A stretch of DNA of 64,000 nucleotides from Chloroflexota bacterium (GTDB lineage: Bacteria; Vulcanimicrobiota; JAMCWD01). Shown piece after piece: positions 9,913 through 30,275 of this stretch. The translations under genes were made by a program, and so were the position numbers. Under the pieces are notes generated by a model. The model did not search any database. It had not been told where the DNA came from and saw nothing but the letters and a program-made list of their open reading frames with translations. The number at the start of each line of letters is the position of its first letter. Positions within the stretch are counted from its first letter, which is position 1. The stretch covers positions 45,436 through 109,435 of the forward strand of contig JAMCWD010000013.1 in the NCBI GenBank assembly GCA_023475345.1. The letters are read 5' to 3'.

Positions 9913-9968
9913 ATCGCCTGTTTCAATCTTTCGGCAGCCGGAAGATTCAATCTAATTTTATCGGGTTT

Positions 9969-10616
9969 TCAGTGTTTTTTCCAGCCGTTTCTGATTAAAA
10001 TGCCTTCGATTACCCGTGAAAGTTTTCCGCAGGATTCCACTGTGAGCTCCATGCGGTCGTATATCTGGATCCACTGGATGGTATTCAAGACGGCGGAGGC
10101 GCCGGATGCGGCTTCTTTATCGAAGAGTTCCCCCAGTCCCAGCCGGAGTAAAAGGTCGCTTTTCTCAAGCTGTTCGTCTATATTGTCGGCCCATTCTTCC
10201 ATCGGGGTTTTCGACTCGATGTTTTCAAGCCATGTTTTTATTTTGCCGGTCATTACCGCGAGATTTTTCCCCAGCTCCCGTGAAGTTTCGGTCGTTTTCG
10301 ATATTTCAAAAAGTCCGAACCTGCCCGATATGCCTCTTATCGTCTTGAGGATCTCCTCCATGCCGTAAGCAAGCGCAAACAGGTCTCCCCGGTCAATAGG
10401 AGTGATCATGGTTTTATTAATTTTCACCAGGATGTCATAAGTTTTGCTTTCACCCTCACGGGTTGTTTCATTTATTTTCCTGCAGGTATCTGCGCTTTCT
10501 TCCGGGTGCTCAAATACCCTGGAAAGCAGCGCTCCGGTTTCGCCGGTAATTGAAGCCTGCTCCTTGAGCAATTCGAAGATGGGGTTGGCTTTCGTCGTAA
10601 AGCTGAAGAAATTCAC
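9969..10616 (-). CDS. DUF47 / PhoU-like (Pit accessory-type) protein
   Basis: It is 215 aa, all helical, with N-terminal 'FFSF..K..IFELLKEQA' and the overall composition typical of TIGR00153/DUF47 phosphate-transport-regulator-like proteins. No pit gene is adjacent. Confidence 0.5.
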   Translation of the reverse strand: MNFFSFTTKANPIFELLKEQASITGETGALLSRVFEHPEESADTCRKINETTREGESKTYDILVKINKTMITPIDRGDLFALAYGMEEILKTIRGISGRFGLFEISKTTETSRELGKNLAVMTGKIKTWLENIESKTPMEEWADNIDEQLEKSDLLLRLGLGELFDKEAASGASAVLNTIQWIQIYDRMELTVESCGKLSRVIEGILIRNGWKKH

Positions 10617-10767
10617 TGTCCTTCCTCCTGAAAAACCTTATCAAGTATAATTCGCCAACTTTATTTAACTCCTCTTTCAACTGACAATTTCGTATGGAGG
10701 AATAATATGGTGTTCTGAAGAACTTCAATATAGTTGAATTCTCTCTATTATTAAGGAGGTTCACCCG

Positions 10768-11187
10768 ATGGCCGCTCCTGATAAAACTGCGAGAAAGCCG
10801 AATCCCCTCAAAAAAGAAGTCGGCCCGAGCATTACGATAAAGATTGGCGGCCTGATTATGTTATTGGGCCTTGTCTGCCTCCCCGTGATGCTGATTATGG
10901 GATTAATGGACTGGGGGCACAGGTTAAAAGAGCAGCAGCTTATCGATCCTTTATACTGGTCAACCGTGATGTGGGCGGGCACCGGCCTTATAGTCCTTGG
11001 AGTGCTTGTCGTTATTATCGGGTATATAAATAAGAAAGCGGCCGCGGAGCAGACGGGGACCGATATCCCATGCCCGAACTGCGGACATACTTACAGGCTG
11101 CCCGAGGGAGTCAAAAAATTCGAGTGTCCTTTATGCAGAAGAAAGGCGGTGGTGGATAGTGGCAAGGCATTTGTATTGCCGGAATAA
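10768..11187 (+). CDS. Membrane protein with C-terminal zinc-ribbon (CPNCG...CPLC)
   Basis: There are two TM helices. The motif 'CPNCGHTYRLPEGVKKFECPLCRRK' has four Cys. Confidence 0.5.
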   Translation: MAAPDKTARKPNPLKKEVGPSITIKIGGLIMLLGLVCLPVMLIMGLMDWGHRLKEQQLIDPLYWSTVMWAGTGLIVLGVLVVIIGYINKKAAAEQTGTDIPCPNCGHTYRLPEGVKKFECPLCRRKAVVDSGKAFVLPE

Positions 11188-13327: not shown

Positions 13328-13494
13328 CCGGAGAATTGAAAAATCGCTTTACGAAACCGGGTCTCCGTCTGAAAGCCGGGAACCCGGTTTGTTTTATACG
13401 GAACTGTCCGGGATATTAACGTTCATGTTATAATTAAAAAGGCCTGCCGCCTGCGGAAGGGGAACCCGGCATTTGAAAATATGGAGACAAAGTC

Positions 13495-15627
13495 ATGAAT
13501 ATTCCTCTTTTGAGATATTCGGAAACCTGTTCGGGCCGAAAAAATTTCAATAGGATTTATCTCGTTTTTGCCTTTCTGAGTTTCATTTCGATGCTTTTAA
13601 TATTCACGGTCGGCTGTGCCGGGATTAGTTGTACCCGGGAAAGACAGCCTGCCGTCGGGCCTTCGCCGGGCGGCCCGTCAGGGAATGCAGCCGCCCCTGT
13701 TTTAAAGGACGATTCTGTCCCCCTCGATAATATCGGGGACTTGAGCAGCGCCCTTGCCCGCGGAAACTTTAATATTGAAAAGGCCTGGGATATCCTGAAC
13801 CCCGAATTGAAGAAAAATCCGGGCGATGTTTCTCTCCTTGTCTTAAAAGCAAGGCTGTTATGGACGTCCGGAAACCTTGACGAGTCGGAAAAAACTCTTG
13901 ATTTTGTCCTGGGAAAGGAACCCCGGAATTCCGCCGCCCTTGCCCTGAAAGCAAAGCTCCTGCTCGACCGCTTCGGGAATGAAAAAGGGCTGGAAACAGT
14001 CAACAGGCTTATCGCCGCCTCGCCAGGCAAATACGAGAACCGGCTCCTGAAGGGCAGGGTGTTGTTTCAGTTGTGTAAGTACGGCGAGGCGGAAAAAATA
14101 TTTCGTTCTCTCATACATGAACATCCTGAAAGGATAGAGGCGTACCTGTGGCTTTCCGATCTTTACGACGCCTCCGTTAAGCCCGATGAAGGACTGAAAT
14201 TTATAAAGGGCGCGTTGAGCAAAACATGGAAGGCTTCCGACAGGTCGCGCCTCCTGGTTGAGCTTGGCGAGATCTATGAGAAAGAAGGCGACACCGGCGA
14301 AGCCCTGAAATATTTTAATGAAGCTGTAAGGCTTGATCCGGGGAATGAGATCGCCGCATCCAAAGTTGCCATTTGCGCCCCCGATTTCGGGGTTGCGGCA
14401 GGCACCGTCGATGAACTCAAAAAAACCATCGGCAAAGGCTCGGACAGCGCTTATCCTTATTTTGCCCTGGCAAGGATATATTACAACGAGGGATGGGTGT
14501 CGTCGGGCAAGGATCTCCTGAATAAGAGCCTGAAAGAATTTCCGCTTGAGATGGAAGGCTACGGCCTCCTGGGATACCTGACTTTCGAATCGAGGGAATA
14601 CCGAGAATCTCAAAAAGCTTATGCCCATGCTAAAGCTCTCCACCCGGGCGATTATAATACAATGATGGGCATAGCGCTCCTGGACATTGTTAGGAGGGAC
14701 AGCGATTCTGCGAAAAAGATCCTTTCGAAACTGAAACCGCCGTCCCTGGTTACCGGCAGGCATTACTGCAGGCTGGGAGATGTTTACATGAATCACATGC
14801 GGGATTATGACACCGCCGACCGGTATTACAGGAAGTCCCTGGAATATAAAGGCCGGGGGGCGGATACGGTCATGACTCTTGCGGCGCTGGGAGAAATTCG
14901 GTTAAAAAAGGGGATGGACAGTGAAGGGGAAGAATATTTCGACCGGGCGATCAGAGATTTCCCCGGCGACATCAGTGTCTATTTCGAGATTATTCCGGGG
15001 TCGGTTCTGAATAAGAAATATAAGATCGCTGAAAAATATCTTGGGAAAATGGAAGGAGAAAAATCCGGAACTAAATGGACTCCCGGCGATCTGAGCGCCG
15101 TATATTTGAGGACGGCCTATGCTTATCTTATAAGCGGGGATCTTGGCGGAGCGCTGAAGATGAGCGAGAAATCGATGAAATATAATCCCGAAGGCCATCC
15201 TTTCGGCGAAGTGTTCCTTGCAAAGCCGGAAAAGAGGAACGAGGCGCGGGCTTTTTATGAAAAAGCGGTAAAGCTGCATCCTGAAAATGCGCTGTCATGG
15301 TTTTTCCTGGGATTCCTTGCCGAAGAATCCGGGGACAAAAAAAATGCGGAATCGTATTATAAGAAAGCCGGAGAAGGGCTGGCATCCCCCGGTGATATGG
15401 ATTATTATAAGGCATGGGTTTATTCGATCAGGAGAAACAGGGAGCAGGCCGCAGCTTACCTCAGAAAAGCATGCGAAAAGGATATATTCAATGCGCCGAG
15501 AGCTTATGCCGATGAATCCTTCGACTGGATGAGAGACGATAGATTCTTCAAAGACGAATTGCCGGAATTATTAAAGCAGGTTAAAGGTAAAAGCCCTTAT
15601 CCTTCGAAAAGCGAGCTTGAATGGTAA
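13495..15627 (+). CDS. TPR-repeat lipoprotein, paralog 2 of 9
   Basis: It has the signal 'TVGCAGISC' and the same architecture, including the conserved C-terminal 'FNAPRAYADESFDWMRDDRFFKDELPELLKQVKGK'. Confidence 0.75.
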   Translation: MNIPLLRYSETCSGRKNFNRIYLVFAFLSFISMLLIFTVGCAGISCTRERQPAVGPSPGGPSGNAAAPVLKDDSVPLDNIGDLSSALARGNFNIEKAWDILNPELKKNPGDVSLLVLKARLLWTSGNLDESEKTLDFVLGKEPRNSAALALKAKLLLDRFGNEKGLETVNRLIAASPGKYENRLLKGRVLFQLCKYGEAEKIFRSLIHEHPERIEAYLWLSDLYDASVKPDEGLKFIKGALSKTWKASDRSRLLVELGEIYEKEGDTGEALKYFNEAVRLDPGNEIAASKVAICAPDFGVAAGTVDELKKTIGKGSDSAYPYFALARIYYNEGWVSSGKDLLNKSLKEFPLEMEGYGLLGYLTFESREYRESQKAYAHAKALHPGDYNTMMGIALLDIVRRDSDSAKKILSKLKPPSLVTGRHYCRLGDVYMNHMRDYDTADRYYRKSLEYKGRGADTVMTLAALGEIRLKKGMDSEGEEYFDRAIRDFPGDISVYFEIIPGSVLNKKYKIAEKYLGKMEGEKSGTKWTPGDLSAVYLRTAYAYLISGDLGGALKMSEKSMKYNPEGHPFGEVFLAKPEKRNEARAFYEKAVKLHPENALSWFFLGFLAEESGDKKNAESYYKKAGEGLASPGDMDYYKAWVYSIRRNREQAAAYLRKACEKDIFNAPRAYADESFDWMRDDRFFKDELPELLKQVKGKSPYPSKSELEW

Positions 15628-15679
15628 TGCCGGATAATCTTATAATACTTATATACCAGGTAATATTGAGGAAATTCAG

Positions 15680-17815
15680 TTGAATCACTTATTGATGAAA
15701 TGCCGCCGGTCGGGATTGAGGATTTATCCCGGTATCGAATCCGGCCTCTTGATTTTGTTTATATTGTTTTTCCTGGCGGTATTTGTTGTAGTTTTCGGAG
15801 GGCCAGGTTGTGCAAGGGGGAGAGGTCCTTCAAGAATAATGAAGCAGCCTCTGCCGAAAAAAATCGATAATTCCATCCCGCTCAATAATGCCGGGGACAT
15901 AAAGAAGGCGCTGGATTCGGAGAACGTTGATTTCGATAGAGCCGGAAAGCTCCTGGATTCGCTCATAAGCAATACACCGGACGACTTATCGCTCCTTATG
16001 CTCAGGGCCAGACTTCTTCGGTCGCAGGGCAGAAACGACGAATCTTTTGCGATCATGGAAGATGTCCTTTCAAAAGCTCCCGAAAATGCGGACGCGCTTG
16101 CTTTTAAAACGGAATACCTGCTCGACCGTTTTAAAAATGGAGAAGCCAGGAAAACAGTTGAGAAATTGATGAGCTTGAAACCGGACGATCCCGGGTGGAG
16201 GCTGCTGGAAGCAAGGGCGCTTACGAGGCTGGGCGAATTCGATAAAGCCGAAAAGATACTCAAGAAACTTATAAAGGAAGACCAGGGCAATATCGCTTAT
16301 TATATCCAGCTTTCGGATGTATATGATTCGAGTCTCAATATCGATAAAGGCATCGGTATCGTTAAGAAAGCCCTAAAGAGAGACTGGCCGGACAAATCCT
16401 CCGAGTCAAGATTAGTTGTCAGGATGGGCGAGATGCTTGAGAGGCAGGGAAAGAAAAAAGAGGCGATGGAAACTTTTAAAAAGGCTCTCGGCGTTGATCC
16501 TGAAAATCTCGATGCCAGGGCGAAACTCGCCCTGTGTATGGATTCGTTTTCAGATCCCGTAAGCAGTTGGGCCGAGGCGGAGAAGGCTATGGAGTTCGAA
16601 AGCAACAGCCCGTACCCCCTGTTTGCCGTTGCGCGGATCTACAGGAACGAAGGCCGGTTCACGCTTGCCATGGCCTCCCTTTATAAGGGCATAGCAAAAT
16701 TTCCCCAGGTGGATACAGGCTACCAGCTCCTGGGTAATTTTGCATTCGAATCGAAAAATTACCGCGAAGCCCTGGATGCTTATGACAGGCTGAAAATCCT
16801 ACGTCCCGGCGATTATAACACCTTACTCGGAGAAGCTCTGCTTGCCATCATATCCAAGGATTTTAAAAAAGCCGATTCCATTCTGGCTGCAATAAAACCC
16901 CCCGAACATCTCAAAGGAGATTTTTACCGTAAGCTCGGAGACGCTTACATGTTTCATCTCCGCGATTACAATAAGGCCGAGGCTTATTACAACAGGTCCC
17001 TGGAATATTTGAATGCGGATGAAAGCGAAGGCTTGAGGGAAGGCCCGGTTGCTGCGCTTATCGGCCTCGGGAAGATCGAGCTTTTAAGGGGTCATGACGA
17101 TAAGGCCGAGGCATATTTTCAACGCGCTATTTCGAAGGCTCCAGAAAATTTTTATGTTTATACGGGGATAATCCGATCCTGCATATCCGGTAATAAATTC
17201 AAGATGGCGAAGAAATATATTAATGAATGGGAACAGAGGAATACTCTCTGGGCGGCAAAAGACAGGATTTCGGCTTATCTGGGTTTCGCCGAGTTGTATT
17301 TGAGCGGCGATATTGAAGAATCCATAAAGATGGCCGGGGAAGCAAGAAAAGTGGATCCCGAAGCGCCGCCTTACGGCAAGCTTCTGATGGTTTTCAAGGA
17401 TGAGAAGAATAATGCAAGATCCTATTATGAACGTACCGTTAAAGTTCAGCCGGATGATTACATGGCATGGTTTTACCTGGGTCTCCTTGCCGAAGAAAAC
17501 GGCGAAACAGATAAGTCAGAACGCTATTACAAGGAAGCAATGAAGGGTCTTCGTTACCCCGGGGATCTCGATTATCAAAAAGCATGGATATATTCCGTCA
17601 GGAAAGACAAGGAAAAAGCGCTTCAATATCTGCGGAAAGCCTGTAATGAAAATGTTTATAACGCCGCAAAAGCTTATTCCGATGAGATGTTTGACTGGAT
17701 GAGAAACGATCCTTTTTTCAAGAACGAATTGCCGGAGATCTTAAAAAAAGTCAAAGACGAAAAACTACAACCGGAGAATGAACTCATCCGGGATTTTGGA
17801 GGCAATAGCCGCTGA
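15680..17815 (+). CDS. TPR-repeat lipoprotein, paralog 3 of 9
   Basis: It has the signal 'GGPGCARGRG' and the same architecture. Its 3' about 480 nt are nearly identical to the 3' end of paralog 4. Confidence 0.75.
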   Translation: MNHLLMKCRRSGLRIYPGIESGLLILFILFFLAVFVVVFGGPGCARGRGPSRIMKQPLPKKIDNSIPLNNAGDIKKALDSENVDFDRAGKLLDSLISNTPDDLSLLMLRARLLRSQGRNDESFAIMEDVLSKAPENADALAFKTEYLLDRFKNGEARKTVEKLMSLKPDDPGWRLLEARALTRLGEFDKAEKILKKLIKEDQGNIAYYIQLSDVYDSSLNIDKGIGIVKKALKRDWPDKSSESRLVVRMGEMLERQGKKKEAMETFKKALGVDPENLDARAKLALCMDSFSDPVSSWAEAEKAMEFESNSPYPLFAVARIYRNEGRFTLAMASLYKGIAKFPQVDTGYQLLGNFAFESKNYREALDAYDRLKILRPGDYNTLLGEALLAIISKDFKKADSILAAIKPPEHLKGDFYRKLGDAYMFHLRDYNKAEAYYNRSLEYLNADESEGLREGPVAALIGLGKIELLRGHDDKAEAYFQRAISKAPENFYVYTGIIRSCISGNKFKMAKKYINEWEQRNTLWAAKDRISAYLGFAELYLSGDIEESIKMAGEARKVDPEAPPYGKLLMVFKDEKNNARSYYERTVKVQPDDYMAWFYLGLLAEENGETDKSERYYKEAMKGLRYPGDLDYQKAWIYSVRKDKEKALQYLRKACNENVYNAAKAYSDEMFDWMRNDPFFKNELPEILKKVKDEKLQPENELIRDFGGNSR

Positions 17816-18032
17816 CCTGAGAATTAACAATCTGCGTTATAAAGAACCGGACACTTTCTTTTAAAAAAGGTCAGGATTTCAGGGAATTGATGATCGATTT
17901 TGATAAAAAAATGGTAAAATTTGGTGTAATATCAGAAACCGTATTATGCCTGAATTTGCCTGTCGATATTATTTTTCATGCTATAATTAATGTAATAAAT
18001 GAAAAACTATCACAGAAAAAGAGTAATAGGGC

Positions 18033-20846
18033 ATGAATAACCGGCTGATGTGGGATACAGGTTCTTGCTTGAATTTTAAAAATTTAAGTTTTACGAATTC
18101 TCTTATGACTCTGCTTATTCTGGCTTCAATGCTTATGATATTTTCGACAGGCTGTGCCGGGTCCGGTTGTAGCAGGGAACGGGAGCCTGTCCGGAGAGAA
18201 CAGTCGAACGGCTCGAAAAAAGATGCTGCGCCCTTATCAAAGGATAACTCCATTACCCTTAATACCATAGAAGATCTGCACATTGCCGTTGACCGTGGAA
18301 ATATCAATATAAAAAAGGCCTGGGACATTTTGAATCCCAGATTGAAAGAAAATTCCGAAGATGTGTCTCTCCTTGTTTTAAAAGCCAAACTTTTATGGAC
18401 ATCCGGGAAACTCAGGGAGTCGGAAAAAACCATTGATATTGTCCTGAAAAAGGATCCGAGGAACGACGCAGCCTTTGCTTTAAAAGCAAAGCTGCTGCTT
18501 GATCGCTTCGGAGGCAAAAAAGGGATGAAATTAATTGACGAACTTATTGCCGGCTCGCCTGATAAATATGAAAACAGGCTTTTAAAAGGCAGGGCGTTAT
18601 TCCAGATGGGCAAATATGATGAGGCCGAGCAGATATATCGTTCCCTCATCGATAAATATCCCGACAGGGTGGAAGCTTACCAGGGGCTTTCTGTTTTGTA
18701 TTATTCAAGCCGCAGACCCGAGGAGGGTTTGAAATTTGTAAAGAGCGCCCTGGATAGAGAATGGAAGAACCCCTCAGACAGAGCGCGCCTCCTGGTTAAT
18801 ACGGGTGAAATTTATCAAAATGAAGATGATATCAACGAGGCGCTCAAGTATTATAATGAGGCGGTCATGACAGACCCGGGAAACAAAGATGCCGTATCGA
18901 AATTTGAAACTTATTCCCCCCTGAAGACGATGAAGACGTCCCCTCTGAAAATGGTTGACAATTCTGTACCGCTCAAAAATGCCGGCGATATTAAGAAGGC
19001 GCTGGATTCCGATAATATCAATATCGACAAAGCGGAAAGGCTGCTGAATTCGCTTATAAGCAAGGCCCCCGGCGATTTGTCGCTTTTCGTGCTTAAAGCC
19101 AGGCTTCTCCGGTTGGAGGATAATAACGACGAATCCTTCAGAACCCTGGAAGGTATTCTTTCGAAAGATCCGGACAATCCGGATGCGCTTGCTTTGAAAA
19201 CGGAAATTCTTCTTGACAGTTTCAAAGATGAAGAAGCTGAAAAAACAGCCGATAAATTGGTGAATTTGAAGCCGGACGTTCGCAAGTACAGGCTGTTAAA
19301 AGCAAGAGCGCTTGCCCGGCTCCGGGATTTCGATGAAGCCGAAAAGATACTGTTGAAACTCATAAAGGAACAACCCGATGAAGTATCTTATTATATATGG
19401 CTTTCAGATGTATATGAATCAAGCCTTCAAGAAGATATGGATATGGACTTCATAAATAAGGCCCTGGCGAGGGGCTGGCCGGACAAGCCCGCCGGCTCAA
19501 AATTAATTACCAGGATGGGCGAACTGCTTGAAAAGCAGGGCCGGTTACATGAATCCACAAATTATTATAAAAAAGCTCTCGCTCTTGATCCTGAAAATGC
19601 CGATGCCAGGGCGAAACTTGCCCTGGGCATTAATGATCCGGTAAGGAACTGGGCTGAGGTTGAGAAAGCAATGGAGCCCGAAACCGACAGCCCGTATCCC
19701 TTGTTCGCCCTGGCCCGTCTTTACAGGAATGACAGGCAGTTTGCACTTGCCAGGGCCATCCTTTATAAGGGAATAAAAAAATACCCCCAGGAAGATGCGG
19801 GCTACCGGATACTCGGTGATTTCGCTTTCGAATTAAAGGATTACCGTGAAGCCAGGGATGCTTATGACAGGCTGAAAATTCTGCGTCCCGGAGATTACAA
19901 CACCCTGGTCGGGGAAGCCCTTCTTGCAACGGCAGGCAGAGATTTTAAAAAAGCGGATTCCATCTTATCAAGAATAAATCCGCCCGAACATCTCAAGGGA
20001 GATTTTTACCGCAGGCTCGGAGACGCCTGCCTGTTCCATCTACGCGATTATGATAAGGCGGCGCTTTACTATAACAGGGCAATAAAAGATATTGATAAAA
20101 GTGAGGATTTGAGTGAAAGGTCTGTTGCCGCGCTTGTCAACCTCGGTAATATCGAGCTTTTAAAGGGTCATGACGACAGGGCTGATAAGTATTTTCGACG
20201 CGCGACAGAGAAAGCGCCGAAAAATTTTTATGTATATACGGGAATAATCCGGACCTGCATACAACGGAAAAAATACGGCCTGGCAAAGAAATATATGAAT
20301 GAATGGGAAAAGGTAAATACCCTCTGGGCCGCAAGGGACAGGATACTGGCTTATTTAAGCTTCGCCGAGCCGTATATGATTAACGGGGACATGGACGAAT
20401 CCATAAATATGGCCGAACAGGCAAGAAAAGTGGATCCCGAAGCGCCGCCTTACGGCAAGCTTCTGTTGGTTTTCAAAAATGAGAAGAATAATGCAAGATC
20501 CTATTATGGAAGGAATGTTGAAGCTGAACCGGACGATTATATGTCCTGGTTTTACCTGGGCCTTCTTTCCGAAGAAGACGGCGAAACAGATAAGTCAGAA
20601 CGCTGTTACAAGGAAGCAATGAAGGGTCTTCGTTACCCCGGGGATCTCGATTATCAAAAAGCATGGATATATTCCGTCAGGAGAGATAAGGCGAAAGCGC
20701 TTCAATATCTGCGGAAATCCTGTAATGAAAATGTTTATAACGCCGCAAAAGCTTATTCCGATGAGGTTTTTGACTGGATGAGGAATGATCCTTTTTTCAA
20801 ACAAGAACTTCCCGGACTGATAAAACAAATAAAGGACAGGGCGTAA
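18033..20846 (+). CDS. TPR-repeat lipoprotein, paralog 4 of 9. It is a chimeric/fused gene: a paralog-2-like N-terminal about 290 aa is joined to a full-length paralog-3-like unit.
   Basis: The conserved N-terminal module occurs twice ('...NTIEDLHIAVDRGNINIKKAWDILNP...' and again '...NAGDIKKALDSDNINIDKAERLLNSL...'). The second copy lacks a signal peptide. At 937 aa it is longer than the roughly 700-800 aa of the other paralogs. Confidence 0.75.
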   Translation: MNNRLMWDTGSCLNFKNLSFTNSLMTLLILASMLMIFSTGCAGSGCSREREPVRREQSNGSKKDAAPLSKDNSITLNTIEDLHIAVDRGNINIKKAWDILNPRLKENSEDVSLLVLKAKLLWTSGKLRESEKTIDIVLKKDPRNDAAFALKAKLLLDRFGGKKGMKLIDELIAGSPDKYENRLLKGRALFQMGKYDEAEQIYRSLIDKYPDRVEAYQGLSVLYYSSRRPEEGLKFVKSALDREWKNPSDRARLLVNTGEIYQNEDDINEALKYYNEAVMTDPGNKDAVSKFETYSPLKTMKTSPLKMVDNSVPLKNAGDIKKALDSDNINIDKAERLLNSLISKAPGDLSLFVLKARLLRLEDNNDESFRTLEGILSKDPDNPDALALKTEILLDSFKDEEAEKTADKLVNLKPDVRKYRLLKARALARLRDFDEAEKILLKLIKEQPDEVSYYIWLSDVYESSLQEDMDMDFINKALARGWPDKPAGSKLITRMGELLEKQGRLHESTNYYKKALALDPENADARAKLALGINDPVRNWAEVEKAMEPETDSPYPLFALARLYRNDRQFALARAILYKGIKKYPQEDAGYRILGDFAFELKDYREARDAYDRLKILRPGDYNTLVGEALLATAGRDFKKADSILSRINPPEHLKGDFYRRLGDACLFHLRDYDKAALYYNRAIKDIDKSEDLSERSVAALVNLGNIELLKGHDDRADKYFRRATEKAPKNFYVYTGIIRTCIQRKKYGLAKKYMNEWEKVNTLWAARDRILAYLSFAEPYMINGDMDESINMAEQARKVDPEAPPYGKLLLVFKNEKNNARSYYGRNVEAEPDDYMSWFYLGLLSEEDGETDKSERCYKEAMKGLRYPGDLDYQKAWIYSVRRDKAKALQYLRKSCNENVYNAAKAYSDEVFDWMRNDPFFKQELPGLIKQIKDRA

Positions 20847-20880
20847 ATCCCTGTTAAAGACAGGCCGGTATAATAATATC

Positions 20881-23058
20881 ATGTCGGATAAATATGCTCG
20901 GGACGATTTTTCGGGAAAGGCGCTCATCACGAAAGGCGGTAAAACTCCGTTCGTAAATTCGTATTGCCGGGGGATTTGCCGGGATGCGGTTTATGCCGCA
21001 CTGCTCCCGCTTCTTATAATCGGGATGTTAATATCAAGCGGTTGTACACGCAGTTGTACCAGGGATGGCGGAATGCCTGTCCCTTCGCCGGAGGAGGCCG
21101 CAGGGGAAAATTATGTTAAAGAAAAATCGCTTCCATTGAATAATGCCGATGATATAAAAAAGGCGCTCGATGCCGAGAACATAAATGAAGCAAAAGCAAG
21201 GGATCTTTTAGAGCCTCTGCTCCAGGCGAATCCCGGCGACCCGTCGCTCCTCCTCCTCAAATCCAGGCTGCTATGGAGCAAAGGCGATCTTAAGACCGCT
21301 CATGAAATTGCCGATGCCGTCCTCCTGAAAGAGCCGGAAAACAGGGACGCCCTTGCTTTCAAGGCCACGATGCTCATGGACCATTTCCGAAACGATGACG
21401 CCGCTTCGTTTATCGACAGGCTTCAGAAAGCCGCGCCCGGCTGGGATCAGGCACAGTTATTGAAAGCCCGGCTCCTGCTTAAAACCTGGAAATATGACCG
21501 GGCGGAGGCCCTTCTGAAGTCGATGATAAAAAAGCACCCGGATAATTTAAAAGCATACAACGCTTTAATCGATGTTTACGATGAGAGTCTCGACATATAC
21601 GGGGGTATGAGATTTATTCAAAACGCGCTTAACAGGAAGTGGGAAGATCCCAAAATCAGGTCGTTTTTTCTAACCCGTCTCGGGGAGCTTATTGAAAGAC
21701 AGGGCAGGATGGAAGTTGCGGTCAAGTATTTTGAAAAAGCCCTCGAGGAGGAGCCTGAAAATACGCTGGCCGGGGGTAAGCTGGCCATGTGTCTGATCCA
21801 CATGGATGATATCGCAGGGGCGCGCATAGAGGTGGAAAAGGCGGCGAAGGATGAAGAGAACCTGGATAACCCGTTCCCGTTATATGCGAAAGCCCAACTA
21901 TTGATGCAGGACGCCCGGTTTTCACAGGCTGAAGACTGCCTGAGACGCGCCATAAAAAAATTCCCGCTGGAGATAACAGGCTATCACATCCTGGGATATT
22001 TCCTGCTTCATTACGGGCAGTACCGGGAAGCTCAGAAGATGTTTGCTCATGCCGCAGCCCGCCGTCCCGGGGATTTCGACGCGATGATGGGCGAGATTCT
22101 CCTGGCCGCCATACGCCGCGATCCCGGGGCACAGGCCGCGCTCATGGCACGGATCCCTCCCCTCGAACACCGCTATGCCGAATATTACCTGAGGCTGGGC
22201 GATATTTATTTACACCACCTCAGGGATACGGACAAGGCTGAATTTTATTACGAAAAGGCGCTTAAAGACAGGGAGCAGGGGCAGTTATCGATTATGCCCC
22301 CCGTCGGGCTGGGAGAAATCGAATTGAAGCGCGGCAGGGATGAAGAGGCGATGAAGCAATTCGGGCGCGCCCTGGCAAGGTCTTCCGAAACGCCTTTTAT
22401 TTACCCGGAAGTTATCGACACCGTGATAGAGAACAAAAGGTTCGATATGGCCGAAAAATATATGGCCGAATGGGAAAAATCGAATAAGACGGCGAAGTCG
22501 TCTTCAATTGATATAAGCTCGATGTATTTACAATTCGCCAATGCTTATGAGAATGCCGGCAATGCTGAGGCCGCAGGCGAGATGGTACGAAAGGCGGGGG
22601 AGGCTTATCCCGATGCTCCCATGCTGGACAGCCACCTTGCAAAAGTTGCGTTAATGCGGGGCGATAAGGAGAAAGCGAAGCGGCACCTGCTGAAATTCGT
22701 GACACGCTTCCCGGAAGAAGGCATTTCATGGCTTTACCTGGGCGTTCTCGCCGGGGAGGAAGGCGACGGCGAAAAAGCCCGGACGTATTCCGGCAGGGCC
22801 GGGGAGATTTTCCTGACGCCCGGCTTCGGGGAATATGAGAAAGCATGGGTTTACTCATTGATGCGCAATAAAGAGGCGGCCGTAAAGGAGCTCAGGAAAG
22901 CATGCGAGGAAGATATATTTAACTCAGCAAGGGCTTATGCCGAAGATTCGTTTGACTGGATGAGAGATGATCCTTTTTTCAAAAACGAGCTCCCGGGGCT
23001 GATAAAACACATTAAGGATAAAACCCCGGTTCCGCAGGAAAAGGATCTTGAATGGTAA
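20881..23058 (+). CDS. TPR-repeat lipoprotein, paralog 5 of 9
   Basis: It has the signal 'ISSGCTRSC' and the conserved N- and C-terminal modules. Confidence 0.75.
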   Translation: MSDKYARDDFSGKALITKGGKTPFVNSYCRGICRDAVYAALLPLLIIGMLISSGCTRSCTRDGGMPVPSPEEAAGENYVKEKSLPLNNADDIKKALDAENINEAKARDLLEPLLQANPGDPSLLLLKSRLLWSKGDLKTAHEIADAVLLKEPENRDALAFKATMLMDHFRNDDAASFIDRLQKAAPGWDQAQLLKARLLLKTWKYDRAEALLKSMIKKHPDNLKAYNALIDVYDESLDIYGGMRFIQNALNRKWEDPKIRSFFLTRLGELIERQGRMEVAVKYFEKALEEEPENTLAGGKLAMCLIHMDDIAGARIEVEKAAKDEENLDNPFPLYAKAQLLMQDARFSQAEDCLRRAIKKFPLEITGYHILGYFLLHYGQYREAQKMFAHAAARRPGDFDAMMGEILLAAIRRDPGAQAALMARIPPLEHRYAEYYLRLGDIYLHHLRDTDKAEFYYEKALKDREQGQLSIMPPVGLGEIELKRGRDEEAMKQFGRALARSSETPFIYPEVIDTVIENKRFDMAEKYMAEWEKSNKTAKSSSIDISSMYLQFANAYENAGNAEAAGEMVRKAGEAYPDAPMLDSHLAKVALMRGDKEKAKRHLLKFVTRFPEEGISWLYLGVLAGEEGDGEKARTYSGRAGEIFLTPGFGEYEKAWVYSLMRNKEAAVKELRKACEEDIFNSARAYAEDSFDWMRDDPFFKNELPGLIKHIKDKTPVPQEKDLEW

Positions 23059-23108
23059 TATGATGAAGACACCTTCAAAAACATCGAATTATTATATATA
23101 TTATTCCG

Positions 23109-25517
23109 GTGCGAAGGTTTCAGGGAAGGAAAAAAGAAGAAAGCCAGGTCGAAACTACGGCAGTCCTATCCGGGTCTTCAAAGGGGATGAATTTTGTGGG
23201 AGCGTTTTTTAACAAAGGCATGAAACTGAAAGGGGTGTTGAAGAATACGGCTCGTGAGCGCCGGTTTTTTCACGCCGGTTTTTTAATCGCCGCCTGTTTC
23301 TTGGTATTATGCGGGATATTGTTCTCAGGCTGCCCGGGACCTGACCGTAACAGGGACAGAATGCCAGGGACGGAGCCGGGCGACAGAAAAGCCGCCGCAG
23401 ACGGCTCTTCCCGGTCTTCCATGCCTGTCGATACATCGGTTCCCATAAACAATATAGAGGATATCAAAAAGGGCCTCGATATGGGCAATATCAGGCTCGA
23501 TAAGGCGTGGAAAATACTTGACTCCGAACTCATAAAAAATCCCAATGACCCGTCTCTTTTGATCCTGAAAGCCCGGCTTTTATGGACGGACGGAAAATTC
23601 AACGAATCCTACAACGCTATACAGGAAGCCCTTGCGATGGATCCGAAGAATACCGGCGCCCTCTCGTTTAAGATCATCCTTTTGCTGGATAATTTCAAGG
23701 GAGAAGAAGCATACGAAACTTTGAAAAAGCTCCTGGAGATAAATCCTGATAGTGATGAAAGCAGGATGCTTCAGGCAAGGGTTATGATGCGGCTGAGAAA
23801 TTATGATGAAGCTCAGAAAGCACTGGAAGATATTATCAGGAAGAACCCTGAGAACCTCAGCGCATATATGTGGCTTATCGATGTTTATGACGAAAGCCTC
23901 CGCATGGATGACGGGATCAGGTTCACCCGGAGCGCTCTAAGAAAGAAATGGGCGGACAAAGACAGGTCGGTGCTGACCGAAAGGCTGGGTGAGTTGTACG
24001 AGCGGATGGGGAATGTAAAAGAGTCGGTCAAGCTCTTTGAAGAAGCGTTGAAGATTGACCCCAATAATAACAAGGCCAGGACGGGGCTTGCGACTTCGGT
24101 GGCCGCGCCGTCGGACCCTCTCCAGATAAGGAGCAATCCTGCAAAGCTACGCGAAAAAGTTGAAGGCGCGATGGAAGGCACTGAAAATGCCCGGTTCAAT
24201 GACGGTGACGAATTTGCGCGCCTTTTTGCCCTGGGTCAGCTCAACGTGAGCGACGGGCACCTGTCTCTTGCCAAGGCCAACCTTTACAGGGCCGTGGAGA
24301 AGTTTCCCATGGAATCTTCTGGATACAAGGCGCTGGGTTATTATACCCTGAATTTCAAAGAATACCGTGAAGCGCAGAAAGCTTATCAATATACCAGGAA
24401 AATCCTTCCCAACGATTATGACGCATTGACGGGGGAAGCCCTGGTAGCTATCGTAAGAAGAGACCCCGAAACTGCGGAGTCGCTTCTTTCGAAAATAAAT
24501 CCCCCGGAGCACCGCAGGGGCGAGCATTATCGCAGGCTCGGAGACGCTTACATGTTCGACCTTCACGATGTTGACACGGCCGAAAAATATTATAAGAAGT
24601 CAGCCGAATACCTGGGACAGGGGGAAGATCCCATAATGTCCATGGTGTTCCTCGGCAATATAGAACTGAAGCGGGGCAATGTCAAGAAAGCGGAAGATTA
24701 CTTCCAGCGCGCCCTGGCAAAACTTCCCGAAGATGTAGAGAATAACATGCTGGCAACGTTCATTTACAAGCATATCCAGAAACACAAGTTCGATATAAAC
24801 ATAATAACCGCGGTAACAGTGGCCTCAATAAGCAACCATAAAGATGATCTGACCCAAAAATATGTTAACGAGTGGAAAAGCGTCGATGACAAATTGACCC
24901 CCAGGGAGCGCGGCGTATATTATTTGAAATGCGCCCGTTATTATCTTTATGACGGGAACATGTCCAAAACACACGAGATGATCGATATAACAAAAAAGGT
25001 GGACCCGACTCATCCCATGATCAACCATTATCTCGGCAGGGCGTACATGATAGAAGGCGACAGGGAAAAGGCAAAAGTCTGTTTCAAAAAGGCGCTTGAA
25101 AATACGCCTGAAGACGCTTATTCGTGGTTTAACCTGGGCATGATAGCCGAAGAAGAAGGGGATAAGCAGCTTGCCCAAACTTACTATAAAGAAGCAAAGA
25201 AAGGCTTCCGCTCGCCCGGCGATATCGATTTCCACAAGGCATGGGTGTATTGCCTGAGAAGAGACAGGAAAAATGCAGTCCGTTCATTGAGAGAAGCGAT
25301 AAAAAAAGATATTTTCAACGCCTGCAGAGCTCATGCCGAAGATTCGTTTGACTGGATGAGAGATGACCCGTTTTTCAAGAATGAGCTGCCCGAAATCCTG
25401 AAGCAGGTTAAAGACAAGACAAGGCTGCCTTCCGAAGGGGAAACGGAATTTGAGAAACACGGATGGAAGAACCTGGAAAATGAAAATACCGGTCCGTCCG
25501 GGGAAAAATCCGATTGA
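23109..25517 (+). CDS. TPR-repeat lipoprotein, paralog 6 of 9. The likely true start is near 23220.
   Basis: It has the signal 'LFSGCPGPD' and the conserved modules. There is an extra insertion 'KHIQKHKFDINIITAVTVASISNHKDD'. The first about 37 aa of the annotated ORF lack signal-peptide character. Confidence 0.7.
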   Translation: MRRFQGRKKEESQVETTAVLSGSSKGMNFVGAFFNKGMKLKGVLKNTARERRFFHAGFLIAACFLVLCGILFSGCPGPDRNRDRMPGTEPGDRKAAADGSSRSSMPVDTSVPINNIEDIKKGLDMGNIRLDKAWKILDSELIKNPNDPSLLILKARLLWTDGKFNESYNAIQEALAMDPKNTGALSFKIILLLDNFKGEEAYETLKKLLEINPDSDESRMLQARVMMRLRNYDEAQKALEDIIRKNPENLSAYMWLIDVYDESLRMDDGIRFTRSALRKKWADKDRSVLTERLGELYERMGNVKESVKLFEEALKIDPNNNKARTGLATSVAAPSDPLQIRSNPAKLREKVEGAMEGTENARFNDGDEFARLFALGQLNVSDGHLSLAKANLYRAVEKFPMESSGYKALGYYTLNFKEYREAQKAYQYTRKILPNDYDALTGEALVAIVRRDPETAESLLSKINPPEHRRGEHYRRLGDAYMFDLHDVDTAEKYYKKSAEYLGQGEDPIMSMVFLGNIELKRGNVKKAEDYFQRALAKLPEDVENNMLATFIYKHIQKHKFDINIITAVTVASISNHKDDLTQKYVNEWKSVDDKLTPRERGVYYLKCARYYLYDGNMSKTHEMIDITKKVDPTHPMINHYLGRAYMIEGDREKAKVCFKKALENTPEDAYSWFNLGMIAEEEGDKQLAQTYYKEAKKGFRSPGDIDFHKAWVYCLRRDRKNAVRSLREAIKKDIFNACRAHAEDSFDWMRDDPFFKNELPEILKQVKDKTRLPSEGETEFEKHGWKNLENENTGPSGEKSD

Positions 25518-27841
25518 GCCGGGATGTATCGCCGGATGGTTTTATAACAACATGTTGGGGGAAAGGTAGTAGAGTAGATATGAAGGATCTTTTAAAAACC
25601 GGACAGGACAGGGGCATTTACAAATCGGTTGCCGCAATCGTTGCCATACTGCTTGCGGTGATTTTGTTTACGGGTTGTGCCAGGATGGGTTGTAATCGTG
25701 AAAAGCCTGTTTCGAAAGAATTTTCGTCCCGCGACGGGGGCAAAGACGGGAGCAATGTTAACAGGCCTGCTCCCGAAGGATTGACGGGGCCGAATAGCCT
25801 GGAGGAACTTAAAAAAGGTCTTGCCGAGGGCGATGTCAACATAGAAAAAGGATGGGAAATCCTGAACCCCCTGCTGAAAAGAAATCCCAAAGACATAAAC
25901 CTCATGGTTCTCCAAGCGGGCCTTACATGGCAGGAGAACAAGCTTGAAGAGGCTCTCAGGCTCCTCGATGATATTTTGAAAAAAAATCCTTTAAACCCGG
26001 AGGCGCTTGATTTAAAGACAAGGATCCTGCTCGACCAGTTCAGGAACAGGGAAGCGATGGAGACCGCGAACCAGTTGATGAAAGTAGATCCCGGCAGTTA
26101 TGAGTACCAGTTGCTTAAAGCAAAAGTGATGATAAAAAATAAAGAGTATGATCAGGTGGAGGGCCTGCTGAAGACACTGGTCAATAATTATCCCGTAAGA
26201 ATCGGAGCTTATCTCGAGCTTGCCGAGCTTTACGATGCGAGCGGCCAGACCGATAGAGGCATAGAATTTGTTAGAAAGTCACTTCAGGGGCAATGGGAGG
26301 ATCCCAATAATGTGAGCCTCCAGGGCGACAGGGGCATAGAATTGAATAAAAAAGATCAGTTTTCTCCCAAGGACAAAGCAAGCCTGATAACGCGGCTCGG
26401 GCAGTTCGTGGAGAAGCAGGGCAATGAAGAAGAATCGTCTCGTCTTTACCAGGTGGCGATTTCGCTTAATCCCAAAGATGTTAAGGCCCAGTCAAGGCTT
26501 TCGATGACGGGGGTCAATCCTTTCGATCCTATCAAGATGGAATCTCATGCGAAAAAAGCAATGGAATACAACAAGGACGAGCCCGACCCGTACGTTGCGA
26601 CGGCGCTATACCAGTGGAACGACGAGATGTTCACCGACGCATACATGACGTTGTACGAAACAATGAAAAAGTTTCCGCTGGAGATGAGGGCATATACCCA
26701 GCTCGGGTATTTCTCGTATTTCATTTACCAGTATAAGATTTCACAAAAAGCTTACTCGTATGCCAATGTTTTGTTCCCCGGCGATTACGACGCGCTTTTC
26801 GGCTTATCGAGAGTGGATACGGTGAGGAGGGATTTTGCCTCCGCCGAGGAGCGCCTGGCGGCGGCATCGAAGAAGATCCCGAAACACCGCTACGGTGAGC
26901 ATTACAGGAAACTTGGCGAGATGTACCTGCTCCACATGCGGGATTACAAGAAAGCCCGTGAGAATTTTTTGGAGTCGATGAAATACGTCAACGAAACGGG
27001 CGATCTGAAAGACGGCCCTGTAATGGCGATGGTCTTCCTGGGAAGCATTGAACTCAGAAACAACAATTATGAAGGGGCGGAAAAACAATTCAAAACGGCT
27101 TTAAAAACGATGCCTGGCGATATCAACATTTATACGAAGATAATCTATGAAATATTGAGGAACCGCAAATATGATCTTGCGGACAAGTATATATCCGAAT
27201 GGGAAAAGCTTCAGACGAACATGAAGATACCGATCCTAAGCCTGTTTTATCTGCGTTATGCCCACATTTTCATGATGCAGGGCGAGCTTGAAAGGGCGGA
27301 AAAAATGATCGAAAGGGCAAAAATATCCGATCCCGAAGATCCCATGATTTATAACAGGCTGGGCCTGCTTTCCCTGATAAAAGGCGATAAGGAAAAAGCA
27401 AAGGAATATTATAAAAAGTGCATCAAGGGCTATCATAACGAATCGTTTTCATGGTTCGGCCTCGGCCTTATCGCAGAAGAAGAAGGCGATAAGGAAGAAG
27501 CCGAAAGATGCTATACCGAGGCAGCAAAACTATTCCGATCTACGGGCGACCTGGATTATCAGAAAGCATGGTTCTACGCGGTGCGCAACAAGAACGACGA
27601 AGCCGTAAAAGCGCTCAAAACTTCTATCAATAAAGATGCTTTCAATGCGTGCAGAGCATACAACGAAATCGCTTTCGACAGGATAAGGAATCGCCCGTTT
27701 TTCAAAAACGAACTGCCGGTGTTGCTAAAGCAGGTTAAAGACAGGACCCAACTGGTCGCAGAGGACATCAAATTTAAAGAAGAAGTGCGGCGGAATGGTA
27801 GCTATGCCAAACCCCTCTCGTCCGGGGACAAGTCCGATTAA
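25514..27841 (+). CDS. TPR-repeat lipoprotein, paralog 7 of 9. An alternative start at 25580 has a better RBS.
   Basis: It has the signal 'LFTGCARMGC' and the conserved modules. There is a short internal duplication 'DRGIEF...DRGIEL'. The annotated start overlaps the stop of paralog 6 (25514-25517). Confidence 0.7.
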   Translation: MSRDVSPDGFITTCWGKGSRVDMKDLLKTGQDRGIYKSVAAIVAILLAVILFTGCARMGCNREKPVSKEFSSRDGGKDGSNVNRPAPEGLTGPNSLEELKKGLAEGDVNIEKGWEILNPLLKRNPKDINLMVLQAGLTWQENKLEEALRLLDDILKKNPLNPEALDLKTRILLDQFRNREAMETANQLMKVDPGSYEYQLLKAKVMIKNKEYDQVEGLLKTLVNNYPVRIGAYLELAELYDASGQTDRGIEFVRKSLQGQWEDPNNVSLQGDRGIELNKKDQFSPKDKASLITRLGQFVEKQGNEEESSRLYQVAISLNPKDVKAQSRLSMTGVNPFDPIKMESHAKKAMEYNKDEPDPYVATALYQWNDEMFTDAYMTLYETMKKFPLEMRAYTQLGYFSYFIYQYKISQKAYSYANVLFPGDYDALFGLSRVDTVRRDFASAEERLAAASKKIPKHRYGEHYRKLGEMYLLHMRDYKKARENFLESMKYVNETGDLKDGPVMAMVFLGSIELRNNNYEGAEKQFKTALKTMPGDINIYTKIIYEILRNRKYDLADKYISEWEKLQTNMKIPILSLFYLRYAHIFMMQGELERAEKMIERAKISDPEDPMIYNRLGLLSLIKGDKEKAKEYYKKCIKGYHNESFSWFGLGLIAEEEGDKEEAERCYTEAAKLFRSTGDLDYQKAWFYAVRNKNDEAVKALKTSINKDAFNACRAYNEIAFDRIRNRPFFKNELPVLLKQVKDRTQLVAEDIKFKEEVRRNGSYAKPLSSGDKSD

Positions 27842-27872
27842 TATTTAAGAGCAACAAAGAAAAGGATACAAC

Positions 27873-30047: not shown

Positions 30048-30275
30048 AATCTCATTGTTGTATTGGATCCGGCTTTAAATTAAGAGACCCTTGAGCCCGG
30101 CTCCAAAAATCGTACCAGGGAGTGATTTGAGAAACCGCACAGCGGTTCGCCATATTCCGAAAACCAATATATGGGCCTTAACGGCTATACATAAAATATC
30201 TTTTTTTTGCTAAGATCAGCATGTAAAATGCCCGGTCGCCGATATTTAATTTAAGGGACGGTATTAATAATTTAT

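What the first reader, a model, noticed from the sequence alone, without database searches (positions are those of the whole stretch)
18033..20846. Paralog 4 is a chimeric fusion; its 3' end shows recent gene conversion with paralog 3
The 937-aa product contains the conserved N-terminal module twice. The first copy follows the signal peptide and is most similar to paralog 2. The second starts around residue 300 and begins a full-length unit most similar to paralog 3. At nucleotide level, the stretches 17341-17400 versus 20421-20480 and 17506-17600 versus 20586-20680 are nearly identical, unlike the rest of the genes. This points to recent unequal crossover or gene conversion within the array, so the family is actively recombining.
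Basis: seen in the sequence. Interest (0 to 1): 0.55.

Follow-up and report, generated by a model that had tools for sequence, protein, structure and literature searches.

The report
Fused TPR lipoprotein paralog, gene conversion
One gene in a row of nine related lipoprotein genes is a fusion of the front third of one neighbour-type gene with a whole second one, and part of its tail has been copied between it and the gene before it; this is real but is ordinary gene-family evolution in proteins of unknown function.

Summary
ORF 18033-20846 (937 aa) is the fourth of nine tandem TPR lipoprotein paralogs (11159-32375).

- **Chimera:** residues 1-296 are 58% identical to residues 1-296 of paralog 2. 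Residues 295-937 are 68% identical to residues 49-693 of paralog 3.
- **Junction:** it lies near nt 18921 and joins the end of the N-terminal module to a point just after the next unit's signal peptide. These positions are not homologous, so the join was an in-frame deletion or illegitimate recombination, not a homologous crossover or a repeat collapse.
- **Fold:** the AlphaFold model shows two complete 13-helix modules joined by a disordered linker (residues 295-310).
- **Near-identical stretches:** There are two tracts, 17342-17429 vs 20421-20508 and 17499-17721 vs 20578-20800, with dS 0.11-0.15 against about 0.9 for the rest of the pair.
- **Timing:** a partial ortholog of paralog 4 from another metagenome groups with paralog 4 outside the tracts (105 vs 29 sites). 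Inside the tracts paralogs 3 and 4 group together (33 vs 7; p = 4e-12). Conversion therefore happened after the lineages split.
- **Limits:** no other paralog pair shows a long tract, and the fusion cannot be dated. I found no independent assembly across the junction.

This is ordinary gene-family evolution.

The parts
11159..32375 (+). Tandem array of nine paralogous TPR lipoprotein genes: p1 11159-13327, p2 13495-15627, p3 15680-17815, p4 18033-20846, p5 20881-23058, p6 23109-25517, p7 25514-27841, p8 27873-30047, p9 30276-32375
   Evidence: ORF list and translations. Pairwise amino-acid identity is 35-45% except for p3/p4 and p2/p4N. Pfam gives only TPR families, and NCBIfam gives the TPR_END_plus domain at the C-terminus. 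tblastn finds no further copy elsewhere in the window.
18033..20846 (+). p4, the 937-aa chimeric ORF (NCBI start at 18105, 913 aa)
18033..18155 (+). p2-type signal peptide and lipobox of p4 (..MIFSTGC, Cys41), followed by a second conserved Cys
   Evidence: Read from the translation and from alignment A2. The AF2 model has a helix at 19-37 followed by a disordered stretch. Lipidation is inferred from the motif only.
18033..18920 (+). First (extra) N-terminal unit of p4, codons 1-296, p2-like. The folded TPR module is residues 79-294.
   Evidence: 58% amino-acid identity to p2 1-296. Sister to p2 in the N-module tree at 65%. dN 0.28, dS about 1.9 versus p2. It appears as a roughly 235-residue insertion relative to all other paralogs in alignment A2. 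13 helices at 79-294.
18915..18962 (+). Fusion junction and linker (residues 295-310). The sequence is p2-like up to Pro296 (..TCC CCC) and p3-like from Met300 (ATG AAG..).
   Evidence: Codon-by-codon comparison with p2 14332- and p3 15779-. pLDDT is below 50 for residues 295-310. No exact repeat longer than 17 nt starting in 18800-19050 occurs elsewhere in the window.
18921..20846 (+). p3-like full mature unit of p4 (second N-module at residues 317-532 plus the C-terminal part). It lacks its own signal peptide.
   Evidence: 68% amino-acid and 77% nucleotide identity to p3 residues 49-693 / nt 15866-17736. Sister to p3 in both module trees.
20421..20508 (+). Conversion tract A in p4 (partner in p3: 17342-17429)
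   Evidence: Exact runs of 45 and 30 nt. dS 0.15 against about 0.9 background. Site patterns: p3=p4 8, p4=ortholog 1. Logan contig L001 ends at 17371, 30 nt into the first shared run.
20578..20800 (+). Conversion tract B in p4 (partner in p3: 17499-17721). It covers the last TPRs and the TPR_END_plus domain (residues 874-924).
   Evidence: Exact runs of 27, 77, 24 and 47 nt. dS 0.11. Site patterns: p3=p4 25, p4=ortholog 6. Domain position.
17342..17721 (+). Partner region in p3 (tracts A and B, with a roughly 69-nt stretch at background divergence between them)
20769..20801 (+). Stretch of nucleotide similarity shared with p5 (22951-22983), coding the conserved FDWMR(N/D)DPFFK motif. In the relative's contig the p4 ortholog switches to the p5 tail in or just after this stretch (about 20780-20840).

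Best explanation
p4 is a genuine in-frame fusion gene inside an old tandem family of exported TPR lipoproteins.

**Fusion.** Most likely a p2-like gene and the p3-like gene after it once lay side by side, possibly as a duplicate of the p2-p3 pair. A deletion of about 1.4 kb by illegitimate recombination then removed everything from the end of the first gene's N-terminal TPR module (codon ~296) to just past the second gene's signal peptide and lipobox (codon ~50). The product keeps the p2-type signal peptide and lipobox. It then has an extra 13-helix TPR module, a flexible linker, and a complete p3-type mature protein.

**Conversion.** Separately and later, homologous recombination between p3 and p4, 3.1 kb apart, copied sequence between their 3' ends without changing copy number. 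This left two patches totalling about 310 nt within a 381-nt span at 95-97% identity, while the rest of the two genes is about 75% identical. At least one round happened after this lineage split from a relative whose genes differ by about 10% in sequence. The relative's unusually small distance to p3 in the same span suggests an earlier round too.

**Shown:** the mosaic ancestry, the continuous ORF, the module architecture, the synonymous-site heterogeneity, and the switch in site patterns.

**Inferred:** deletion as the fusing event, RecA-type conversion, lipidation, and that a single protein is made.

**Function.** The biochemical role of the family is unknown. The proteins are probably membrane-anchored TPR scaffolds that bind other envelope proteins.
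For: - **Different nearest paralogs for the two halves:** p4 1-296 vs p2 at 58%, and p4 295-937 vs p3 at 68%. N-module tree: p4N with p2 (65%), p4's second module with p3 (61%), and the two p4 modules only 38% alike.
- **Junction mapped to within 3 codons,** between p2-like ..SP296 and p3-like M300K.. It joins p2 codon 296 to p3 codon ~50.
- **Structure:** the AF2 model (mean pLDDT 80) has helices 79-294 and 317-532 in the same 13-helix pattern, separated by a low-confidence linker at 295-310.
- **Constraint:** dN/dS is about 0.15 for p4N vs p2, and the ORF is intact.
- **No shared sequence at the join:** the longest exact repeat starting in 18800-19050 that recurs in the window is 17 nt.
- **Conversion, synonymous sites:** third-position identity is 0.9-1.0 in the tracts against about 0.6 elsewhere. 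dS is 0.15 and 0.11 against 0.9, with non-overlapping bootstrap intervals. Permutation p <= 1e-4.
- **Conversion, phylogeny:** with the ortholog on L003, informative sites are 105 (p4, ortholog) vs 29 (p3, p4) before the tracts, and 7 vs 33 inside them. Fisher p = 4e-12.
- **Independent assembly:** Logan contig L001 is 100% identical to window 9352-17371. It stops exactly 30 nt (k-1 for k = 31) into the first shared exact run, as expected if that sequence has two contexts in the reads.
- **No RNA explanation:** there is no Rfam match and no unusual RNA fold in the tract.
Against: - No independent assembly or read set spanning the junction at about 18.92 kb could be retrieved. The fusion therefore rests on one MAG contig.
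- dS for p2-p4N (about 1.9, CI 1.26-4.0) is higher than for p3-p4C (about 0.9, CI 0.66-1.34). A single duplication of the p2-p3 pair is therefore not clearly supported, unless older conversion lowered the p3-p4 value. Only the first 82 codons of the p3-like unit, at dS 1.4, match the p2-p4N level.
- p4N carries about twice as many unique substitutions as p2. The extra module may be under relaxed constraint.
- The direction of conversion cannot be determined without a p3 ortholog.
- The 3-5% residual divergence in the tracts means the event is not very recent.
Confidence: 0.78

Rival explanations
1. The 937-aa ORF is an assembly artefact: two neighbouring genes were mis-joined near 18.9 kb.
For: The source is a metagenome-assembled genome. 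The array is repetitive, and independent assemblies do break inside it. No second assembly across the junction was found.
Against: - A repeat collapse joins homologous positions and gives a normal-length hybrid. Here codon 296 of one unit is joined to codon ~50 of the next.
- No exact repeat longer than 17 nt starting near the junction recurs in the window. The flanks are at least 25% diverged from every other copy.
- The join is in frame and falls exactly in an inter-module linker.
Confidence: 0.07
2. The near-identical 3' stretches reflect strong purifying selection on a conserved protein domain or an embedded RNA/DNA element, not gene conversion.
For: The C-terminal region is the most conserved part of the family. 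In many paralog pairs it gives the best short nucleotide match, 15-48 nt.
Against: - Synonymous sites are homogenised. Third-position identity is 0.9-1.0 and dS is 0.11-0.15, against about 0.9 next door.
- Other pairs have third-position identity of about 0.35 over the same domain.
- The p4 ortholog in a relative is further from p4 in the tract than p3 is.
- There is no Rfam hit, and the RNA fold z-score is -0.55.
Confidence: 0.03
3. The tracts are an assembly artefact. Reads from one copy were used to build both copies, or the 3' ends of p3 and p4 were swapped while the assembler traversed a repeat.
For: Exact runs of up to 77 nt are long enough to confuse short-k assemblers. Logan's contig breaks at the tract.
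Against: - The two copies still differ at 13 positions spread through the tracts, and by about 25% in the 69 nt between them. Both copies were therefore resolved separately.
- The contig break at k-1 shows that the shared k-mers really have two contexts in an independent read set.
- The relative's p4 ortholog also carries a p3-like tract.
Confidence: 0.05
4. The doubled module arose by duplication within p4 itself (internal tandem duplication of its own N-module).
For: The same module occurs twice in one ORF.
Against: The two copies are only 38-40% identical and are not each other's nearest relatives. Copy 1 groups with p2 (65%) and copy 2 with p3 (61%).
Confidence: 0.02
5. The fusion is real in the DNA, but the gene is decaying or is not made as one protein. 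For example, the first module may be a relic, or translation may restart at Met300.
For: p4N has roughly twice the unique substitutions of p2. p4 ends early and lacks the C-terminal tail that most paralogs have. Met300 aligns with a Met in p3.
Against: - The first module has 296 codons without a stop or frameshift, although dS is about 1.9, and dN/dS is about 0.15.
- All 13 helices are predicted.
- A product starting at Met300 would lack any signal peptide, unlike every other family member.
Confidence: 0.08

Closest known systems
Interparalog (ectopic) gene conversion and concerted evolution in bacterial multigene families, e.g. Helicobacter pylori babA/babB/babC chimeras
   Same: RecA-type intragenomic recombination between diverged paralogs produces mosaic or chimeric genes. 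PMC5483490 describes this for the bab genes. Here p3 and p4 carry tracts in which the paralogs are closer to each other than p4 is to its ortholog.
   Different: The bab genes lie at separate loci, and the exchange switches adhesin phenotype in a pathogen. Here the partners are neighbours in a tandem array of uncharacterised TPR lipoproteins in an uncultured bacterium. The exchanged segment is a conserved C-terminal region, and there is no evidence of phenotypic switching.
Treponema pallidum tpr gene family (chimeric tprGI; tprK variation by gene conversion)
   Same: A paralogous family encoding envelope proteins that includes chimeric members and uses gene conversion (PMC4593590 and its reference 86).
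   Different: tprK uses many silent donor cassettes and one expression site. Here all nine genes are complete ORFs with their own export signals, except for the internal unit of p4, and only one pair shows a tract. Tpr proteins are not tetratricopeptide proteins.
Generic bacterial TPR scaffold lipoproteins and TPR solenoids (e.g. PrsT, PilW, LbcA, BamD-like proteins)
   Same: All-helical TPR solenoid with an N-terminal signal peptide and lipobox. The structural matches are to long TPR superhelices.
   Different: No NCBIfam equivalog reaches its cutoff (PrsT scores 171.7 against 312.2). TM-scores to solved structures are only about 0.2. The family has its own conserved N-terminal motif and was found in only a few metagenomic relatives.
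Gene fusion by deletion between adjacent tandem paralogs (domain accretion)
   Same: A continuous ORF made of the 5' part of one family member and nearly all of the next, in the same order as the closest paralogs p2 and p3.
   Different: The classic examples are homologous unequal crossovers that give hybrids of normal length. Here the breakpoints are non-homologous, so a whole module was added.

Membership tests
Tetratricopeptide-repeat (TPR) proteins | Multiple TPR motifs detected by Pfam models above the gathering score | tested here: met
   TPR_14, TPR_19, TPR_16, TPR_2, TPR_8 and TPR_1 all score far above their cutoffs for p2, p3 and p4.
Tetratricopeptide-repeat (TPR) proteins | Paired antiparallel helices forming a solenoid | tested here: met
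   The AF2 model (mean pLDDT 80) is all-helical with 51 helices. Foldseek matches are only to TPR superhelices.
NCBIfam NF047558 TPR end-of-group domain | Score above the curated cutoff (32 bits) at the C-terminal end of the repeat array | tested here: met
   p4 scores 33.3 bits at residues 874-924. p3 scores 42.7 bits at residues 632-682.
XrtA/PEP-CTERM TPR lipoprotein PrsT (TIGR02917) | Score above the equivalog cutoff of 312.2 bits | tested here: not met
   171.7 bits (p4) and 154.3 bits (p3), spread over four partial stretches. This is generic TPR similarity only.
Bacterial lipoproteins | Signal peptide ending in a lipobox with an invariant Cys | tested here: inconclusive
   Read by eye only. 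p4 has ..LMIFSTGC, and eight of the nine paralogs have a Cys at this position, whereas p3 has Gly. No lipoprotein predictor or experiment was available.
Interparalog gene conversion | A bounded tract with significantly higher identity than the rest of the pair, including synonymous sites | tested here: met
   dS 0.11-0.15 against 0.9, and permutation p <= 1e-4. The 3' boundary is sharp at about 20801.
Interparalog gene conversion | Phylogenetic incongruence: paralogs within one genome are closer than orthologs inside the tract only | tested here: met
   Site patterns are 105:29 outside the tracts and 7:33 inside. Fisher p = 4e-12.
Interparalog gene conversion | Donor and recipient identified | not testable with these tools
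   This needs a p3 ortholog from the relative. Only the 3' part of the p4 ortholog was retrievable.
Cassette-based antigenic variation systems (vls, tprK, pilE/pilS type) | One expression site plus several silent, promoterless partial donor cassettes | tested here: not met
   All nine array members are full-length ORFs with their own N-terminal export signals. tblastn finds no partial copies elsewhere in the window.
Chimeric / fusion gene | Segments with different nearest relatives joined in one uninterrupted reading frame | tested here: met
Chimeric / fusion gene | Junction confirmed in independent reads or assemblies | not testable with these tools
   The exact-product and junction-DNA look-ups found nothing. 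Edge-truncated Logan products are not indexed, as the control showed.

The most novel reading that the evidence does not exclude
The array might be a built-in diversification locus for envelope TPR lipoproteins of an uncultured lineage. In this reading, the conserved 3' motif is made of low-degeneracy codons and so serves as a recombination anchor among otherwise diverged paralogs. That would allow repeated conversion (p3/p4), loss of a unit (p5 in a relative) and gain of a module (p4). Strains would then differ in their repertoire of binding scaffolds.
Probability: 0.1. Interest if true: 0.5.

Novelty: new member of a known kind. Interest (0 to 1): 0.3.

Why it matters
This is a clean, well-bounded example of two textbook processes in a protein family nobody has studied: a gene gaining a module by fusion, and concerted evolution by gene conversion.

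For annotators, the 937-aa gene should not be split or treated as an error without read evidence. The 3' ends of p3 and p4 are also a likely breakpoint for short-read assemblies.

For biology it says little so far. The function of the family is unknown, recombination is evident in only one pair, and nothing links the events to a phenotype.

Tried and rejected
- **Independent assembly across the junction: not obtained.**
  - Exact-product look-ups for p4 (937 aa and 913 aa) and p5 found no gene on record.
  - An exact 39-nt junction search in JGI metagenome contigs found nothing.
  - Exact look-ups of eight possible truncated p4 products found nothing. The control, the truncated p3 product known to be called on L001, was also absent, so this test is uninformative.
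- **Searches for relatives in large collections.** Profile-based scans of GTDB representative genomes and JGI metagenomes found no family members. Two of the three word-index protein searches returned little more than the window's own proteins or one fragment. The exhaustive representative search and a p6 query did find relatives.
- **Promoter and terminator scan of the array.** Only consensus noise.
- **Embedded RNA element in the tract.** Rejected: no Rfam match, and fold z = -0.55.
- **Internal duplication of p4's own module.** Rejected by the module tree.
- **Specific functional homolog by fold.** Only generic TPR solenoids with TM of about 0.2.
- **Single duplication of the p2-p3 pair as the origin of p4.** Attractive because of gene order and similar amino-acid identities (65% and 61%), but not established, because dS differs (1.9 vs 0.9).
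Full report
**What is there.** Between 11159 and 32375 the + strand carries nine back-to-back ORFs of 699-937 aa.
- They are paralogs, 35-45% identical for most pairs.
- Each starts with a hydrophobic signal sequence. In eight of the nine this ends in a lipobox-like ..GC.
- Pfam sees only TPR repeats. NCBIfam adds a C-terminal 'TPR end-of-group' domain above its cutoff, while specific equivalogs such as PrsT fall far below theirs.
- tblastn finds no further copy in the window.
- The proteins are on record as 'MAG: tetratricopeptide repeat protein [Chloroflexi bacterium]', MCL5036189-91, from a 130-kb contig.

**The chimera.** The fourth ORF (18033-20846, 937 aa) has two halves with different ancestry.
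- Residues 1-296 match p2 residues 1-296 at 58% identity (next best paralog 38%). Residues 295-937 match p3 residues 49-693 at 68% (next best 43%).
- In a tree of the N-terminal module, the first copy in p4 is sister to p2 (65%) and the second is sister to p3 (61%). The two copies inside p4 are only 38% alike. This rules out a duplication within p4 itself.
- In a family alignment the first copy appears as an insertion of about 235 residues that no other member has.
- Codon by codon, p4 follows p2 up to ..Ser-Pro296 and follows p3 from Met300-Lys.., with three ambiguous codons between.
- The join therefore connects the end of the N-module of one unit to a point about six to nine residues after the place where the next unit's lipobox Cys would be. 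These positions are not homologous.
- The AlphaFold model (17-row alignment, mean pLDDT 80) shows 13 helices at 79-294, a low-confidence linker at 295-310, and the same 13-helix pattern again at 317-532. No helix is interrupted.
- Foldseek against the PDB returns only generic long TPR solenoids with TM of about 0.2.

**Is the fusion an assembly error?** I could not test this on reads.
- Sequence arguments speak against it. A repeat collapse would join homologous positions and give a gene of normal length, which is not what is seen.
- No exact repeat longer than 17 nt starting in 18800-19050 recurs anywhere in the window.
- The flanks are at least 25% diverged from every other copy.
- The join is in frame and sits exactly between folded modules.
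- The first module has kept an open frame over 296 codons, with dN/dS of about 0.15 against p2. It does carry about twice as many unique substitutions as p2.
- All attempts to find a second assembly across the junction failed or were uninformative.

**How the fusion most likely arose.** The order p2, p3, p2-like module, p3-like unit suggests a history. Either the p2-p3 pair was duplicated, or two older genes of these types lay here. About 1.4 kb was then lost, from codon ~297 of the first to codon ~50 of the second.
- Similar amino-acid identities of the two module pairs (65% and 61%) fit a single duplication.
- The synonymous distances do not fit well: about 1.9 for p2-p4N against about 0.9 for p3-p4C.
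- However, the first 82 codons of the p3-like unit have dS 1.4, and divergence falls towards the 3' end. Older conversion may therefore have lowered the p3-p4 figure.
- This step is inference. The age of the fusion is unknown, and nothing shows that it is recent.

**The near-identical stretches.** At an offset of 3079 the two genes share exact runs of 45, 30, 27, 77, 24 and 47 nt.

| Region | Identity / dS | Source |
|---|---|---|
| p3 vs p4, most of the gene | 62-83% nucleotide identity, third positions about 0.6 | |
| 17321-17720 vs 20400-20800 | 91-99% nucleotide identity, third positions 0.9-1.0 | |
| Tract A, 17342-17429 / 20421-20508 | dS 0.15 | |
| About 69 nt between the tracts | dS 1.1 (background) | |
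| Tract B, 17499-17721 / 20578-20800 | dS 0.11 | |
| Rest of the p3-p4C pair | dS about 0.9 | |

- After 20801 similarity collapses.
- Shuffling alignment columns never reproduced the observed segment score (p <= 1e-4 for all sites and for third positions).
- Of the 45 comparisons among the ten sequence units (p4 split into its two halves), only p3/p4 shows a long tract. The others show only 15-48-nt matches in the stretch coding FDWMRDDPFFK. That motif is built from low-degeneracy codons, so it stays similar at the DNA level without any conversion.
- There is no Rfam family and no unusual RNA fold in the tract.

**Evidence from other assemblies.**
- Logan contig L001 (SRR10267473) is 100% identical to window 9352-17371. 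It ends exactly 30 nt into the first shared 45-nt run. A k = 31 unitig stops there when the next k-mer has two predecessors, so the repeat exists in an independent read set.
- A second Logan contig, L003 (ERR14064718), comes from a relative. Its p6 is 88.6% identical in protein.
- Bases 1-998 of L003 are the ortholog of the 3' part of p4: 87.8% to 19841-20838, against 77.5% to p3.
- Before the tracts, informative sites favour (p4, ortholog) over (p3, p4) by 105 to 29. Inside the tracts they favour (p3, p4) by 33 to 7 (Fisher p = 4e-12).
- In tract B, p3 and p4 are 98-100% identical in windows where p4 and its ortholog are 80-87% identical.
- Paralogs that are closer than orthologs, in a bounded segment only, are the signature of gene conversion after the two lineages split.
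- The ortholog is also closer to p3 inside the tract (about 14% different) than outside it (about 26%). This suggests an earlier round of conversion, or a parallel one in the relative.
- The residual 3-5% difference between p3 and p4 in the tracts, against about 10% between orthologs, places the last event at very roughly a third to a half of the time since the split. This is an inference that assumes a clock.

**How general is recombination in the family?** Evidence beyond p3/p4 is thin but not absent.
- In L003 the p4 ortholog passes, in or just after the conserved motif, into the tail of p5, the p5-p6 spacer, p6 and p7. The body of p5 is therefore missing there. This could be an unequal crossover or a unitig mis-join.
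- In a more distant MAG labelled Candidatus Eremiobacteraeota (GCA_021159575.1) the family again forms tandem arrays of 700-761-aa genes next to an RCC1-repeat gene.
- One contig of that MAG begins with a 99-nt gene tail that is 93% identical to the tail of the next paralog.
- None of the relatives' complete genes has the doubled module.

**Comparison with known systems.** The processes are well known.
- RecA-dependent intragenomic recombination makes chimeric babA/babB genes in H. pylori (PMC5483490).
- The T. pallidum tpr family has chimeric members and uses gene conversion (PMC4593590).
- This locus is not a cassette-type variation system, because all members are full-length genes with their own export signals.
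- It is best filed as an ordinary case of gene fusion plus interparalog conversion, in an uncharacterised and narrowly distributed TPR lipoprotein family.

**Verdict.** Novelty: a new member of a known kind. Interest is modest (0.3).

Noticed in passing
window 15680-15830 (p3 N-terminus): p3 has Gly where the other eight paralogs have the lipobox Cys (..VVFGGPGCARG against ..FSTGCAGSGC..). It keeps only the second conserved Cys, so it may not be lipidated like its relatives.
   Followed up: no
L003 900-1100 versus window 20780-20840 and 22950-23110: In a relative (Logan ERR14064718) the p4 ortholog switches to the tail of p5 in or just after the conserved FDWMRDDPFFK coding stretch, and continues into p6 and p7. 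The body of p5 is therefore absent. This is either an unequal crossover or a unitig mis-join.
   Followed up: partly
L006 1-99 versus L006 2114-2212: In the MAG labelled Candidatus Eremiobacteraeota, the 3' tail of a truncated upstream paralog is 93% identical over 99 nt to the tail of the next paralog. The rest of these genes are 65-75% identical. This hints at 3'-end homogenisation in another lineage.
   Followed up: no
window 8482-9912 (-) and L004 5701-6927 (-): An RCC1-repeat protein (with a TIG domain in the window copy) lies next to the TPR array, both here and in the distant relative. This suggests a conserved linkage.
   Followed up: no
window 28-8052 (+): A giant 2674-aa ORF with BACON, TIG/IPT and dockerin domains lies just upstream of the array region.
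   Followed up: no
window 20801-20880: p4 ends early (..IKQIKDRA*). It lacks the TPxPxxxELxW tail found in most paralogs and in the relative's p4 ortholog.
   Followed up: partly
window 32424-35199 (-): A sigma-70-family factor and two flagellar rod (FlgF/FlgG-type) genes lie directly downstream of the array on the opposite strand.
   Followed up: no
whole window /: The window's proteins are labelled 'Chloroflexi bacterium' in NCBI. The family members found in other NCBI MAGs are labelled 'Candidatus Eremiobacteraeota', so one of the taxonomic labels may be unreliable.
   Followed up: no
window 25514-25517: p6 and p7 overlap by 4 nt: the p7 TTG start lies inside the end of p6. This suggests translational coupling.
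   Followed up: no
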